A stretch of 64,000 nucleotides of DNA from the human T2T-CHM13v2.0 reference genome, Homo sapiens (GCF_009914755.1 NC_060930.1); one strand, 5' to 3'. Counted from the stretch's first letter, positions 4,230 through 16,277 are shown. The notes: a model not told the origin generated them from the letters alone. Numbers and translations: made by a program.

Positions 4230-4723
4230 TCTGCCATTTTGCTTAGCAGTTTATTAAAAACATTAACCAATGAGAGAGAAGATGCATTTTGAGCTGATGT
4301 ATGCGGTCTCACCCTCAATCATGATGACCTTGATGAACTATATTCTTTGAATCCTTTAGGCTGTAAGTTCAGTGAAGCAAAATATAATTGTAACCACCGA
4401 GGAAGAGAAATGGAGTCACATGCAAACTTTTCTACAGAGTATGTCATCCACAGACAAAGTCATTGTCTTCGTTTCTCGAAAAGCTGTGTAGGTATTTTTT
4501 CTTGTGTGTCCATTATAATTAATTAAATTGATTAGGATCATTTCTATTTGTATACTAATTCCAAATGGGGGTGATAAGTCTGTTATGTTACTTTAGATTT
4601 TTGCTAACAGAAGTAAAACTGGTGGCATTAGAATAAGCACCTAAGAATGCTGAGTTTATCTTTTGCTTCAGTGCGGATCACTTATCAAGTGACCTAATAC
4701 TTGGAAATATATCAGTAGAGTCT
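4230..4723 (-). other. CGAS: Candidate alternative CGAS terminal exon, antisense to DDX43 exons; codes RLY* at 4723-4712
   Basis: Minus strand reads ctttctcccgatctctctgttctctatctccatgcag|AGA CTC TAC TGA; AATAAA at 4255-4250; in frame with internal donor CAC|gtatgt at 16163. Confidence 0.7.
4360..4487 (+). CDS. DDX43: DDX43 exon (AVSSVKQNIIV...DKVIVFVSRKAV), motif IV region
   Basis: ctttag| acceptor, |gtaggt donor, 128 nt, frame continuous. Confidence 0.95.
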
Positions 4724-4781
4724 CTGCATGGAGATAGAGAACAGAGAGATCGGGAGAAAGCATTAGAGAACTTTAAAACAG
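4672..4781 (+). CDS. DDX43: DDX43 exon (ADHLSSDL...SLHGDREQRDREKALENFKTG)
   Basis: cttcag| acceptor, |gtatgt donor, 110 nt; LHG and QxxR helicase motifs. Confidence 0.95.
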
Positions 4782-5249
4782 GTATGTTTATGTAATTAGT
4801 ATTTCATACAGTTTAAAATTAGTGCAATACCTGGGCTTGGCTGAGTAACATCTTTTCATGAAACCCATTTATTTCTAAGATCTGTCCTCACCTTCTGTAT
4901 CCTACAACTACACTCATTAGAGCTCTAAACATTAATCTGCCTTTAAGTATTAAATAAACACAAGACTTTAAACTTGGATATCAAGGTATTAATATGCAAC
5001 AGAAAATATATCTGAAGTTATCTGAAAAATGTATCTTTCTGTCATGGTTCGAAGGGTTTAGGACCCATTTGCTGAACCATGGTATCTTGTAACTTGCCGG
5101 CAGTTACTTTTCCATTTTCACAAAGTAAGCATTTTAATGTAAACAGTAAGAAATAAAATTGATTAAATTAGTTAGGGCAAATATTATTTTTAGATCTTGG
5201 GTTGGTTTATACCAGAATGGTTCAGTGTTCATTTGGCTTTACTTTTTAG

Positions 5250-5388
5250 GCAAAGTGAGAATACTAATTGCAACTGATCTAGCCTCTAGAGGACTTGATG
5301 TCCATGACGTTACACATGTCTATAATTTTGACTTTCCACGGAATATTGAAGAATACGTACACCGAATAGGGCGCACGGGAAGAGCAGG
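5250..5388 (+). CDS. DDX43: DDX43 exon with motif V ([10 protein letters not shown]) and motif VI ([10 protein letters not shown])
   Basis: ORF track 5159..5392 contains it; ttttag| acceptor, |gtaagt donor, 139 nt. Confidence 0.97.
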
Positions 5389-6198
5389 GTAAGTAAGCTT
5401 AGTCCACCCATGAAAGGCCAATTCTAGATTCTCCTTATTCCTCTCACAAACTTCTTGCCCAGAAAACCATTTTATTCTATTACCTATAATTTTTCAGCTA
5501 CTTCCCAGATTATACTTGCTACTTTATTTATCCCTGTTCATTTGGCTTGTTCCAGACTCAACCAGATTCCATCCATGATTAGCTTCTTATATCTGGTTCT
5601 ATGTGTTTTATATCTAGTGTCACCGCTGAGCTCTGTACCCAGTGGTTACTCTGAAGGTTATTGACAAATTGGTATGGATATGAGACGACCTTTTTCCTCT
5701 TAAGAGAGCTACCACTGGGCCGGGCACGGTGGCTTACGTCTGTAATCCTAGCACTTTGGGAGGCCGAGGCAGGTGGATCATGAGGTCAGGAGATTGAGAC
5801 CATCGTGGCTAACACGGTGAAACCCCGTCTCTACTAAAAATACAAAAAATTGACCTGGGCGTGGTGGCGGGCGCCTGTAGTCCCAGCTACTCGGGAGGCT
5901 GAGGCAGGAGAATCACTTGAACCCATGAGGCAGAGGTTGCAGTAAGCCGAGATTGCGCCATTGCACTCCAGCCTGGGCAACAGTGCAAGACTCCATCTCA
6001 AAAAATAAATAAATAAATAAATAAATAAGAGGTACCATCATATACCCCCTTTGCTGTTTAAACCACAGCAGATTTAGATTCCAAATCTGTTTGACCCTAA
6101 ATCTTAATACATTCCAGCTTCTGTGAAAAAGTTTTCATTTGTCTTATTCTGTATTAACTGAATAATGAATACATGAGTTTTTTTCCCCCACACTAAAG

Positions 6199-6286
6199 GA
6201 GGACTGGTGTTTCCATTACAACTTTGACTAGAAATGATTGGAGGGTTGCCTCTGAATTGATTAATATTCTGGAAAGAGCAAATCAG
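6199..6286 (+). CDS. DDX43: DDX43 exon (RTGVSITTLTRNDWRVASELINILERANQ)
   Basis: ctaaag| acceptor, |gtgaga donor, 88 nt, frame continuous. Confidence 0.95.
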
Positions 6287-13400: not shown

Positions 13401-14851
13401 TGTAATCTCCCTACCACTGTCACCATACAGGAACTAAGCCTATTGTCCTATCCTAACCACAGAGTGGGTAATCATAATTTCTTTCTTTCTTTTCACATTA
13501 AAAAAGTTTTTTTTTAATTTTTTTTTTTTTTTTGAGATGGAGTCTCGCTCTGTCACCAGGCTGGAGTGCAGCGGCACTGTCTTGGCTCACTGCAACCTCT
13601 GCCTCCTGGGTTCAAGCGATTCTCCTGCCTCAGCCTCCCAAGTAGCTGGGATTACAGGCACGTACCACCATACTCATCTAATTTTTGTATTTTTAGTAGA
13701 GATGAGGTTTCACCATGTTGGCCAGGCTGGTCTTGAACTCCTGACCTCATGATCTGCCCGCCTTGGCCTCCCAAAGTGCTGGAATTACAGGGGTGAGCCA
13801 CCGCCCCTGGTTTTTAATTTTTTTAAAGTCGACAACAGTCCATAACTTCAATAAGATTAATAGTCAATGGTTACATTACTATGACTTTGTCAATACTTAA
13901 ACAGCTGAGCAATATTCTTATATCAGACTTTTCTTTCATGCATTCATTTTTCTTATGGAGTTAAAAATTGCTTAGATTGGCTGGGCACAGTGCTCACATC
14001 TGTAATCTTAGCACTTTGGGAGGCTGAGATGGGTGTATCACCTGAGGTCAGGAGTTTGAGACCAGCTTGACCAACATGGTGAAACTCTGTCTCTACTAAA
14101 AATACAAAAATAATTAGCCAGGCATGGTGGCGTGCAACTGTAGTCCCAGCTACTTGGGAGGCTGAGGCAGGAGAATTGCTTGAACCGGGAGGAGGAGGGT
14201 GCAGTGAGCCAAGATCGTGCCACTGCACTCCAGCCTGGGCGACAGAGTGAGACTGTCCCAAAAAAAAAAAAAATTGCTTAGATTATTTTATTTGCATAGT
14301 GGTTTATTTATCATTAATTGTCCCCAAAACTCTTCAAATGTCTAATGTTTCTCTTAGTATGTTCAAACATAGTAGGCTGTTAAACAAGATGTATAAAGCA
14401 AAAACCATAAAAAATTCAACTCCAATTTATTCTCAAAAGCTTGAATGAGAAAAGAAATCAACTCCATTAAAATTTAAAAATCTTTACAATAAACAAAACA
14501 ATACAAAACAAAAAAACCTTGTTTACTAAAAGACACCAAAAAATGTGCAGACAACCCATATGGCAGAAGTTATTTGTTACACAGACAACGAATGAAAGAT
14601 AAATACCCCAAATATATTAAGAACTTCCCAAAACAATGAGAAGAAAACTAACCCATAAGAAAATGTGCAAAATATATGAACAGGAAATATTTAACAAACA
14701 GCAGTTGCCTCTAGGCTGAATGCTACCTAAAATAAAAAAAGTGTTACTGAAAGTAAAAATAAATAGATAACAGAAAATAAGTTAGGTTTTACATTTAGTC
14801 ACGTATATTAAAATAAAGTATCTTATGTTTTCTTTTAAGATTATGTATTTC

Positions 14852-15149
14852 AGCCAGGCGTGGTGGCTCACGCCTGTAATCCCAGCACTTTGGGAGGCCA
14901 AGGCGGGCGGATCACAAGGTAAGGAGATCGAGACCATCCTGGCTAACATGGTGAAACCCCATCTTTACTAAAAATACAAAAAATTAGCCGGATGTGGTGG
15001 CGGGCACCTGTAGTCCCAGCTACTCGGAAGGCTGAGGCAGGAGAATGGCATGAACCCAGGAAGCAGAGCTTGCAGTGAGCCAAGATCATGCCACTGGACT
15101 CCAGCCTGGGCGACAGAGCGAGACTCCATCTAAAAAAAAAAAAAAAAAA
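14852..15149 (+). mobile_element. Full-length Alu, antisense to CGAS mRNA, in the distal 3'UTR region
   Basis: Dimeric Alu with A-tail; TSD attatgtatttc. Confidence 0.95.
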
Positions 15150-15544
15150 TTATGTATTTCCTGGCCAGGCACGGTGGAGAGCTGTTTTTCAGTAAGAACT
15201 TGATGAATTTAATTAAGGCAATATGTACTTTATCTTTTTTTATTCCAACCTAAAAATGTCATTTATTTATTTATTTGCCTGCATGATAAAGCAAACATGG
15301 TAATGTTTTTAGATTTCAAATACTACTTTTGCTTCTTATTCCTTGACTAATCTTTTTCCTAGGATAGTCAATCCTTTATACTGATTAGAGTTTATTACAA
15401 CAAACTGAAAACTGAATAATTATTTACATTCATTTTAGTCAATTATTGCTGTGACAAATTTCAAACATTCCAATTATTACAGTCACTAATTTTTGTTATT
15501 TTGTTGCTTTTCTAAAAAATTATTTTAATAATTTCCTAATTTAT

Positions 15545-15851
15545 TTTTCTTATTTATTTATTTATTTATTGAGAGGAAGTCTTGCTCTGTCACCCAGGAT
15601 GGAGTGCAGTGGTGCCATCTTGACTCACTGCAACCTCCACCTCCTGGGTTCAAGTGATTCTCATGTCTAAGCCTCCCGAGTAGCTGGGATTACAGGCATG
15701 CATCACCATGCCCGGCTAATTTTTATATTTTTAGTAGAGATGGAGTTTCACCATGTTGGTCAGGCTGGTCTCAAACTCCTGACCTCAAGTGATCCGCCTG
15801 CCTCGGCCTCCAAAGAGCTGGGATTACAGGTGTGAGCCACAGCGTCTGGCC
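15545..15851 (-). mobile_element. Full-length Alu, sense to CGAS mRNA, starting ~75 nt after the stop codon
   Basis: Reverse-complement Alu with an (AAAT)n tail. Confidence 0.95.
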
Positions 15852-15925
15852 CCTTTTCAAATTTTTCTTGTATTCTCCAGGATTTAGGGTGACTCTAGTT
15901 CTTAGATCTTTCTAAAAATACAATC

Positions 15926-16277
15926 TCAAAATTCATCAAAAACTGGAAACTCATTGTTTCTTTCATATTCAATTTGCTTTGTCAGAAATTCCTTACTTCT
16001 TTTGTCAATTAAGTTGCTAGAGAATAGATTGAATTCAGGAATAAAATAATTCTCAAGTTTTTCTGTCCTGAGGCACTGAAGAAAGTATGTCACGCAGTTA
16101 TCAAAGCAGAGGCCCAGGTCTTTGCGGTCCCACTGACTGTCTTGAGGGTTCTGGGTACATACGTGAAAGAAGGCAGTTTTCACATGATAAGAAGAGAATT
16201 TATCCAGATGTTTTTTGTCTTTAAACCTTTCTTTCAGCTGTTCTAAAAGGTATTTCATTAGTTTTAAACAATCTTTC
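15926..16277 (-). CDS. CGAS: CGAS exon 5 coding part (aa 406-522, ends FPVFDEF*)
   Basis: ORF 15926..16258; caacag| acceptor; the five exons sum to 1569 nt = 522 aa plus stop. Confidence 0.98.

What the first reader, a model, noticed from the sequence alone, without database searches (positions are those of the whole stretch)
4230..16163. Truncated cGAS isoform whose last exon lies antisense inside DDX43 coding exons
Seen: CGAS exon 5 has an internal donor CAC|GTATGT right after H444 (16163). About 11.4 kb away, the purine-rich codons of the DDX43 LHGDREQRDREK motif read on the minus strand as a long polypyrimidine tract ending catgcAG|AGA CTC TAC TGA (4723-4712). A minus-strand AATAAA lies at 4255-4250. 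Joining the sites gives a 447-aa cGAS ending ...FFH-RLY*. It keeps the catalytic acids and zinc thumb but loses aa 445-522. Its terminal exon is complementary to two DDX43 exons (4360-4487 and part of 4672-4781). Recall: this agrees with a curated 447-aa cGAS isoform, so the isoform is probably not new; the dual-use sequence is what stands out. Inference: the stop is in the last exon so the mRNA would escape NMD. It could make an inactive or dominant-negative DNA binder, and could couple CGAS to the germline/cancer-testis gene DDX43 through RNA duplexes or convergent transcription.
Basis: partly seen in the sequence, partly recalled or inferred. Interest (0 to 1): 0.8.

Follow-up and report, generated by a model that had tools for sequence, protein, structure and literature searches.

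The report
Truncated cGAS isoform overlapping DDX43 antisense
The splice sites for a shortened form of the DNA sensor cGAS, whose last exon runs backwards through two coding exons of the neighbouring gene DDX43, are really in the sequence, but the form is probably a minor by-product and has no shown function.

Summary
- the donor CAC|GTATGT after codon H444 (last exon base 16163);
- the acceptor CAG|AGA CTC TAC TGA (exon starts at 4723);
- the minus-strand AATAAA at 4255-4250.

Joining the sites in silico gives 447 aa ending FFH-RLY.

RefSeq annotates the same donor but joins it to a different, Alu-derived acceptor at 15129, which gives 497 aa.

New support came from public proteomes. A horse cGAS (435 aa) and a horseshoe-bat cGAS (444 aa) both end three residues after the same FFH, with RLH and RLY.

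The tail codons and the acceptor AG are the codon-aligned antisense of DDX43 residues S-V-E-S-L. These residues are nearly invariant in 114 mammalian DDX43 proteins. DDX43 coding constraint therefore probably preserves the CGAS splice site.

The isoform keeps the catalytic acids and the zinc-thumb residues. It cuts the Mab-21_C domain at profile position 38 of 102, so an unstable or inactive product is likely.

Its production needs read-through of the canonical CGAS poly(A) site.

The architecture matches the known THRA TRalpha2 / Rev-erb-alpha overlap. No paper found describes it. Dominant-negative action and coupling to DDX43 remain speculation, and human expression could not be tested.

The parts
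16163..16277 (-). Proximal part of CGAS exon 5 (codons 406-444) kept by the isoform. RefSeq annotates it as an exon of another transcript.
   Evidence: Hub table
16157..16162 (-). Internal 5' splice site, intron side GTATGT. The full context is CAC|GTATGT.
   Evidence: 7 of 9 consensus matches, joint best of 89 GT sites in exon 5.
4724..16162 (-). Proposed 11,439-nt intron. It contains the canonical CGAS stop, 3'UTR and poly(A) site, a 6.1-kb intergenic stretch, and the antisense of DDX43 exons 5250-8268.
   Evidence: length; hub table
14426..14431 (-). AATAAA of the canonical CGAS poly(A) site (3' end at 14410). Transcription must read through it for the isoform to form.
   Evidence: context string
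4724..4768 (-). 3' splice-site region, lying wholly inside the antisense of DDX43 exon 4672-4781. It has a branch-point-like CTAAT (4766-4762), an AG-free pyrimidine-rich tract (30 of 38 pyrimidines) and CAG.
4712..4723 (-). Tail codons AGA CTC TAC TGA (R-L-Y-stop). They are codon-aligned antisense of DDX43 codons TCT(S) GAG(E) GTA(V) TCA(S).
4230..4723 (-). Predicted terminal exon of about 494 nt. The 3' end is inferred from the hexamer only.
4250..4255 (-). AATAAA, the first canonical poly(A) hexamer after the acceptor. An A7 run follows at 4223-4217.
4672..4781 (+). DDX43 coding exon encoding ...ISVESLHGDREQRDREKA... Its purine-rich codons form the pyrimidine tract on the other strand.
4360..4487 (+). 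DDX43 coding exon that lies wholly inside the predicted CGAS terminal exon, on the opposite strand.
   Evidence: Hub table
14410..15129 (-). Competing annotated terminal exon of RefSeq's second CGAS transcript. Its acceptor is T18-AG, followed by sequence I recognise from recall as antisense Alu, inside a masked repeat.
   Evidence: Hub table

Best explanation
This is a real but minor alternative-last-exon form of CGAS.

Canonical exon 5 acts as a composite terminal exon. Usually the transcript is cleaved at the poly(A) site at 14410, which gives the 522-aa enzyme.

If RNA polymerase II reads through that site, the internal donor after H444 (16163) can be spliced to a downstream acceptor. One such acceptor is annotated by RefSeq at 15129 and comes from an Alu. 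Another is the site at 4723.

The 4723 site exists because the purine-rich, strongly conserved DDX43 codons for S-V-E-S-L-H-G-D-R-E-Q-R-D-R-E read on the opposite strand as a branch-point-like motif, a pyrimidine tract, a CAG, and then R-L-Y-stop. DDX43's own coding constraint therefore keeps the CGAS acceptor and the three-codon tail in place across mammals. That would explain why horse and bat gene models have the same ending.

The product keeps the N-terminal DNA-binding region, the nucleotidyltransferase core and the zinc thumb. It loses about 60% of the Mab-21_C helical domain. It is most likely catalytically dead or unstable, and low in abundance.

Shown: the sites, the reading frame, the domain cut, the orthologous endings and DDX43 conservation.
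Inferred: use in human cells, low abundance, instability, and dependence on read-through.
For: - Sites and frame.
- The donor is annotated by RefSeq and is joint best in exon 5 (hub table).
- The acceptor is comparable to or better than the 15 annotated acceptors on simple measures.
- The first AATAAA lies 468 nt after the acceptor.
- Orthologues: 163 proteins passed E <= 0.001 and 120 were listed. Of those 120, 2 end three residues after KTAFFH. P0089 is horse (UniRef), 435 aa, tail RLH. P0096 is Rhinolophus ferrumequinum (NCBI), 444 aa, tail RLY, and represents a cluster of 5 members. Both align to human 1-447.
- The tail codons are the exact codon-aligned antisense of DDX43 S-E-V-S, and the CAG is the antisense of Leu CTG.
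- In 114 DDX43 proteins these residues are S 112, V 109, E 114, S 114, L 114, H 114 and G 114 of 114.
- Domain cut: exon 5 covers PF20266 positions 3-101 of 102. The retained 38 aa cover positions 3-38 and the lost 78 aa cover 40-101.
- Exon 5 is identical to cGAS 407-522 in PDB chains.
Against: - No human transcript, junction-read or 3'-end data could be consulted.
- The supplied RefSeq table has no transcript with this junction.
- In the protein searches no 447-aa human cGAS appeared: 0 of 61 hits and 0 of the 120 listed. Clustering at 90% identity could hide it.
- Nine acceptor candidates in the interval score as well on all three simple measures.
- 17 AATAAA and 13 ATTAAA hexamers lie on the minus strand between 14409 and 4724, so many read-through transcripts may end earlier.
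- The horse and bat models could be projections of a human model rather than independent transcript evidence. I could not see how they were built.
- Only 2 of the 128 distinct cGAS-family proteins examined carry the tail.
Confidence: 0.6

Rival explanations
1. This is a regulated, functional isoform. The 447-aa protein would act as a decoy or dominant-negative DNA or nucleosome binder. Alternatively its mRNA would couple CGAS and DDX43 expression through sense-antisense pairing or transcriptional interference, as Rev-erb-alpha does for TRalpha2.
For: - The same ending occurs in gene models from three orders: human by in-silico join, horse and bat.
- The stop lies in the last exon, so the mRNA should not be an NMD target.
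- The N-terminus, catalytic acids and zinc-thumb residues are kept.
- The same architecture is known to be regulatory at THRA/NR1D1 (PMC4569393, abstract and passages).
Against: - The conservation is fully explained by DDX43 coding constraint, so it says nothing about selection on CGAS.
- The Mab-21_C domain is cut at position 38 of 102.
- No paper on such an isoform was found in 10 full-text searches.
- A 2021 review of isoforms in the pathway lists only exon-skipping cGAS forms (PMC8636596, passages).
- A 2026 pathway review contains neither 'isoform' nor 'splic' (PMC13586583).
- As I recall, DDX43 is a testis and cancer-testis gene, so co-expression with CGAS would be limited.
Confidence: 0.12
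2. The junction is not used in human cells. The donor at 16163 pairs only with the nearby Alu-derived acceptor at 15129, as RefSeq annotates. The 4723 site is one of several look-alike acceptors that happens to give a short tail.
For: - The RefSeq table has only the 16163>15129 junction (hub table).
- That acceptor has 18 of 18 pyrimidines, lies 1 kb away, and lies before the canonical poly(A) site, so it needs no read-through.
- Nine equally good candidates lie in the interval.
- A stop within four codons is expected in roughly one frame in six by chance (my arithmetic, 3 stops among 64 codons).
Against: - Horse and bat proteins end with exactly the tail that this acceptor predicts. That is hard to get by chance.
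These recollections are not independent and were not checked.
Confidence: 0.1
3. This is annotation propagation. A single rare human cDNA gave rise to a database isoform, and the horse and bat models were made by projecting that model onto genomes where DDX43 conservation keeps the sites intact. The orthologous endings would then add no evidence of expression.
For: - Only 2 of 128 cGAS-family proteins carry the tail.
- Both come from automatic annotation sources (UniRef/TrEMBL and NCBI).
- DDX43 conservation would let a projection succeed in most mammals.
Against: - If projection were general, many more species should show the tail, but only two do.
- The bat entry carries no 'isoform X' label. 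This may mean it is the gene's only model there. I could not check that.
Confidence: 0.15

Closest known systems
THRA TRalpha1/TRalpha2 with NR1D1 (Rev-erb-alpha) convergent overlap
   Same: An internal 5' splice site lies inside the exon that otherwise ends the mRNA (THRA exon 9). Splicing to a further exon competes with polyadenylation of the shorter form. That last exon lies antisense to the 3' exon of a neighbouring protein-coding gene on the other strand. The product has a changed C-terminus that abolishes the main activity (PMC4569393, abstract and passages).
   Different: TRalpha2 is an abundant isoform with its own long coding tail and mapped regulatory elements. Here the tail is 3 codons and abundance is unknown and probably low. 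The overlap covers two internal coding exons plus an intron of DDX43, not its terminal exon. The two 3' ends annotated by RefSeq are 6.1 kb apart (8268 and 14410).
Immunoglobulin mu secreted/membrane switch (composite terminal exon; recalled textbook case, not looked up here)
   Same: The choice lies between cleavage at a proximal poly(A) site and splicing from a donor inside the same exon to downstream exons.
   Different: There is no antisense gene. Both products are abundant and functional.
Read-through (downstream-of-gene) transcription with aberrant or chimeric splicing
   Same: It needs failure of termination at the gene's own poly(A) site, followed by splicing to sites far downstream. 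HSV-1 infection induces such events (PMC4441252, passages; PMC13501980, abstract only). MB21D1 (CGAS) is listed with 83% read-out in infected fibroblasts (Supplementary Data 1).
   Different: Described chimeras join exons of same-strand neighbours. Here the acceptor is on the antisense strand of the neighbour. MB21D1 is not among the 71 intergenic splicing events of Supplementary Data 3.
Exon-skipping cGAS spliceforms of primates (Hancks et al. 2015, PMC4420275)
   Same: They are alternative cGAS mRNAs with intact ORFs that keep exon 1 and, in some, the catalytic residues. Their function is untested (passages).
   Different: Those forms lack internal exons and keep the normal C-terminus. The 443-aa ape and monkey proteins keep the canonical tail. 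This form keeps all internal exons and loses the C-terminus.
RefSeq's second CGAS transcript (16163>15129)
   Same: It uses the same donor, loses residues 445-522 in the same way, and has its stop in the last exon.
   Different: The acceptor comes from an Alu within CGAS's own 3'UTR. The tail is 53 aa and the total 497 aa. It needs no read-through and overlaps no other gene.

Membership tests
Alternative last exon from a composite terminal exon (splice versus polyadenylate) | A usable 5' splice site inside the canonical terminal exon, upstream of its stop and poly(A) site | tested here: met
   CAC|GTATGT at 16163. It matches 7 of 9 consensus positions, joint best of 89 GT sites in exon 5. RefSeq annotates it as an exon end (hub table).
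Alternative last exon from a composite terminal exon (splice versus polyadenylate) | A downstream acceptor followed by an in-frame stop and a poly(A) signal | tested here: met
   Acceptor at 4723, stop at 4714-4712, AATAAA at 4255-4250.
Alternative last exon from a composite terminal exon (splice versus polyadenylate) | Transcripts that carry the junction and the distal 3' end | not testable with these tools
   No human RNA data are on hand. Indirect support: horse and bat proteins with the predicted ending.
Convergent cis-natural antisense pair with coding-exon overlap (THRA/NR1D1 type) | The terminal exon of one gene lies on the opposite strand over exons of the neighbour | tested here: met
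   Exon 4723-4230 (minus) covers 52 nt of DDX43 exon 4672-4781 and all of exon 4360-4487 (hub table). This holds only if the isoform exists.
Convergent cis-natural antisense pair with coding-exon overlap (THRA/NR1D1 type) | Both RNAs are present in the same cells, and the partner affects splicing or stability | not testable with these tools
   No expression data are on hand. DDX43 occurs 0 times in the held supplements of the fibroblast data set, and that file was cut when stored.
Active cGAS (Mab21-family nucleotidyltransferase) | Catalytic acidic residues and zinc-thumb ligands | tested here: met
   E225, D227, D319, H390, C396, C397 and C404 are present upstream of residue 444 (residue numbers recalled).
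Active cGAS (Mab21-family nucleotidyltransferase) | An intact C-terminal Mab-21_C (HhH/H2TH-like) domain | tested here: not met
   The retained residues 407-444 cover PF20266 positions 3-38 of 102. Positions 40-101 are lost.
NMD-insensitive mRNA | The stop codon lies in the last exon, or less than about 50 nt before the last junction | tested here: met
   The stop lies 10-12 nt into the predicted last exon. This assumes no further splicing. The DDX43 intron borders read CT..AC on this strand.

The most novel reading that the evidence does not exclude
CGAS would carry a built-in switch that depends on read-through. When termination at its own poly(A) site fails, output would shift from the active 522-aa enzyme to C-terminally truncated forms spliced from the H444 donor. 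One of these forms is anchored in the antisense of an invariant DDX43 helicase motif, and so is preserved across mammals.

Termination fails in stress and in HSV-1 infection. MB21D1 shows 83% read-out in infected fibroblasts.

Such a switch would lower DNA sensing exactly when a DNA virus disrupts host 3'-end processing. In germ cells or tumours that express DDX43 it would also create double-stranded RNA with DDX43 mRNA.
Probability: 0.06. Interest if true: 0.7.

Novelty: new member of a known kind. Interest (0 to 1): 0.35.

Why it matters
cGAS is the main cytosolic DNA sensor and a drug target. Its isoforms are almost unstudied; reviews list only exon-skipping forms.

If the truncated forms were abundant in some state, they would affect three things:
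- how CGAS mRNA levels are read;
- how antibodies against the C-terminus perform;
- how 3'-biased RNA-seq counts are interpreted.

The locus also shows how one gene's coding constraint (the DDX43 SVESLHG motif) can freeze a splice site and a stop codon for the gene on the other strand. That makes apparent conservation of an isoform uninformative about its function.

As things stand it is most likely a catalogued, low-level isoform of ordinary kind.

Tried and rejected
1. Literature.
- Database identifiers recalled for the isoform: 0 papers.
- Phrases for a cGAS isoform or splice variant: 2 papers, namely Hancks 2015 and an unrelated potato paper.
- DDX43 + CGAS + antisense: 4 papers. Judged from the listing only, none is about the overlap.
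- DDX43 + MB21D1: 1 paper, on a canine disc-calcification locus, seen as a listing only.
- C6orf150 + DDX43: 1 paper. Its passages were read and are only lists of tiling-array loci.
- MB21D1 + SpliceSeq: 0 papers.
- 'C-terminal truncation' with cGAS: 3 papers. In the two I opened, the phrase sits in a TREX1 reference title.
- PMC9686058, on isoform-level RNA-seq of the pathway: 0 occurrences of any CGAS transcript term in the main text. Its supplements were not examined.

3. A search for a named human 447-aa protein found none. This covers the exon-1 query (61 hits) and the residues 407-446 query (120 of 163 listed). Clustering at 90% identity may hide it, so this is not evidence of absence.

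4. A first regular expression for the DDX43 motif was too strict and matched 14 of 114 proteins. It was replaced by pairwise alignment.

5. One search translated exon 5 in the wrong frame and is uninformative. Searches failed on frame slips and were corrected.

6. I did not fold the truncated protein. A structure prediction would model the remaining residues whether or not they are stable, so it could not answer the question.

7. No complex prediction was run, because no binding claim is made.

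
Full report
WHAT WAS CLAIMED. That acceptor lies on the antisense strand of a DDX43 coding exon. 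The join would give a 447-aa cGAS ending FFH-RLY, whose last exon is complementary to two DDX43 exons.

- Donor. The minus strand reads ...TTC TTT CAC|GTATGT, with the last exon base at 16163. Summing the annotated coding exons puts exactly 444 codons before the donor.
- Acceptor. The site is ...CTCCATGCAG|AGA CTC TAC TGA. The exon starts at 4723 and the stop is at 4714-4712.
- Poly(A) signal. A minus-strand AATAAA lies at 4255-4250. It is the first canonical hexamer after the acceptor.
- Product. Joining the pieces in a script gives 447 aa ending FFHRLY. The canonical join gives 522 aa.
- Identity of exon 5. Its coding part is identical to residues 407-522 of cGAS in solved structures.
- DDX43. 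Exon 4672-4781 reads ...ISVESLHGDREQRDREKA... in frame 1.
- Overlap. A 4723-4230 exon would be complementary to 52 nt of that exon, to all 128 nt of exon 4360-4487, and to 314 nt of DDX43 intron.

IS IT MORE THAN CHANCE?
The donor is good. It matches 7 of 9 consensus positions, as do only 2 of the 89 GT sites in exon 5. The 13 annotated donors of the window score 5-8. The supplied RefSeq table lists 16163-16277 as an exon of another transcript, so this donor is accepted as used.

The acceptor has a branch-point-like CTAAT 39-40 nt upstream and a 45-nt AG-free stretch. It has 14 of 18 pyrimidines, against 9-18 in the 15 annotated acceptors. It has 30 of 38, against 18-27.

It is not unique. Of 758 AG sites on this strand between 16100 and 4000:
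- 28 are as good on the short tract with YAG;
- 9 of those also match on AG-free length;
- 3 match on the long tract.

A three-codon tail is unremarkable. Sequence alone therefore makes the junction plausible, not demonstrated.

WHAT REFSEQ ACTUALLY HAS. RefSeq's second CGAS transcript joins the same donor to 15129. That acceptor is a T18-AG followed by sequence I recognise as antisense Alu (recall). It lies inside a masked repeat (14780-15180) within CGAS's own 3'UTR. The join gives 497 aa with a 53-aa tail. The 447-aa form is not in that table. I could not check either, and searches for the identifiers I recall found 0 papers.

INDEPENDENT SUPPORT FROM OTHER MAMMALS. I searched the large protein collection with residues 407-446. 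The search gave 163 hits, of which 120 were listed. I then aligned the retained 38 residues to each listed protein.
- 111 of the 120 have a canonical-length C-terminus of 65-85 residues after the FFH position.
- 7 have other tail lengths (52 or 86-99 residues). Their tails begin with canonical-type sequence, for example VCT or ICT.
- 2 end after three residues. P0089 is horse (UniRef), 435 aa, tail RLH. P0096 is Rhinolophus ferrumequinum (NCBI), 444 aa, tail RLY, and represents a cluster of 5 members.
- Both of these align to human residues 1-447.

A second search with exon 1 gave 61 hits and 8 new proteins. None had the tail, and no 447-aa human entry appeared. In total, 2 of 128 distinct proteins carry the predicted ending. 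I could not see how those two models were built. They may rest on transcripts or on projection from a human model.

WHY THE SAME TAIL RECURS. The tail codons sit in exact antisense register with DDX43 codons:
- AGA is the antisense of TCT (Ser);
- CTC is the antisense of GAG (Glu);
- TAC is the antisense of GTA (Val);
- TGA is the antisense of TCA (Ser);
- the acceptor CAG is the antisense of CTG (Leu).

Any CTN leucine codon reads NAG on the other strand, so the AG is fixed as long as that leucine uses a CTN codon. A synonymous Val GTG would read CAC (His), which fits the horse RLH. This is an inference, because the horse DNA was not seen.

In 114 mammalian DDX43 proteins the residues are S 112, V 109, E 114, S 114, L 114, H 114 and G 114 of 114. 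The set includes several isoforms per species, so the rows are not independent. The DDX43 stretch over the acceptor region is 74% purine.

The simplest reading is that DDX43 coding constraint keeps the CGAS acceptor and stop in place. Conservation of the isoform's ending therefore says nothing about selection on CGAS.

WHAT THE PRODUCT WOULD BE.
- E225, D227, D319 and H390, C396, C397, C404 are all upstream of the cut (numbering recalled).
- Exon 5 encodes Pfam Mab-21_C (PF20266) positions 3-101 of 102. The retained 38 residues cover positions 3-38 and the lost 78 cover 40-101.
- A helical domain cut after about a third of its length is unlikely to fold. I therefore expect an inactive and probably unstable protein. 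This is inference.
- I found no published C-terminal truncation data. Only 2 of the 3 papers from that search were opened.

HOW IT WOULD ARISE. The proposed intron (16162-4724) contains the canonical stop, the 3'UTR and the poly(A) site at 14410. Polymerase must therefore read through that site and then travel about 10 kb, through the antisense of DDX43's last exons, before the acceptor is made. The competing 15129 acceptor needs no read-through. On the way lie 17 AATAAA and 13 ATTAAA hexamers. This predicts low usage in normal cells and higher usage when termination fails.

Published data show that such failure does reach CGAS. In HSV-1-infected fibroblasts MB21D1 is listed with 83% read-out and 77% read-in (PMC4441252, Supplementary Data 1). 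Read-out is defined there as RPKM in the first 5,000 nt downstream divided by the gene RPKM, at 7-8 h after infection.

Three limits apply to that result:
- 53% of about 10,000 genes exceeded 35% read-out, so CGAS is not special.
- The high read-in means much of that transcription may not start at the CGAS promoter.
- MB21D1 is absent from the paper's 71 intergenic splicing events.

COMPARISON WITH WHAT IS KNOWN. The closest case is THRA. There an internal 5' splice site in the TRalpha1 terminal exon 9 is spliced to an exon 10 that overlaps Rev-erb-alpha on the opposite strand. The splice competes with polyadenylation and gives a variant that does not bind hormone (PMC4569393, abstract and passages). 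The immunoglobulin mu secreted/membrane switch (recalled) shares the splice-versus-polyadenylate logic. Chimeric splicing driven by read-through is reviewed in PMC13501980 (abstract only).

The only cGAS spliceforms I found in print skip internal exons (PMC4420275 and PMC8636596, passages). The 443-aa ape and monkey proteins keep the normal C-terminus. Their length fits loss of the 79 codons of exon 3; this is length arithmetic only.

VERDICT. The isoform is plausible, and orthologous gene models support it indirectly. It is probably already catalogued, and it belongs to a known kind: an alternative last exon with a convergent antisense overlap.

The added insight is that the neighbour's coding constraint fixes the splice site and the tail. 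Dominant-negative action and coupling to DDX43 are untested.

Supplements that I could not see may bear on expression. These include the PDF supplement of PMC4441252 and the supplements of the isoform-level RNA-seq paper PMC9686058.

Noticed in passing
window 14410-15129 and 16163-16277, minus strand: RefSeq's second CGAS transcript joins the H444 donor to a T18-AG acceptor inside a masked repeat in the gene's own 3'UTR. The sequence after the acceptor looks like antisense Alu (recall). The in-silico product is 497 aa with a 53-aa repeat-derived tail.
   Followed up: partly
P0127 (Canis aureus cGAS isoform X2, 429 aa; cluster of 5 members): This canid model ends at ...FCSYH, seven residues before the FFH position, with no extra tail. 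It carries only the PF03281 annotation. It is a second kind of truncation in the same stretch of Mab-21_C, at a different junction.
   Followed up: no
P0006-P0008, P0011, P0012, P0016, P0018 (ape and Old World monkey cGAS, 443 aa): Several primates have annotated 443-aa isoforms with a normal C-terminus. The length equals 522 minus the 79 codons of exon 3. That fits the exon-3-skipping spliceforms cloned by Hancks et al. 2015. The exon assignment rests on length only.
   Followed up: partly
CGAS gene as a whole (window 14410-42713): In published HSV-1-infected fibroblast data MB21D1 has 83% read-out and 77% read-in. Its 4sU-RNA level holds (2.4 mock, 3.7 at 7-8 h) while its ribosome-profiling signal falls from 10.2 to 2.0 (PMC4441252, Supplementary Data 1). 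An upstream minus-strand gene may be the source of the read-in; the highly expressed EEF1A1 is a candidate. This was not checked.
   Followed up: no
P0001, P0088, P0090, P0091, P0093 (bat cGAS models of 683-801 aa): Several bat cGAS models are much longer than the roughly 520 aa usual in mammals. P0001 scored far above the rest against a 40-aa query, which suggests a repeated segment. Not examined.
   Followed up: no
window 15428, minus strand (CGAS 3'UTR): This is the only other GT in exon 5 that matches 7 of 9 donor consensus positions (AAT|GTAAAT). It lies in the 3'UTR, downstream of the stop.
   Followed up: no
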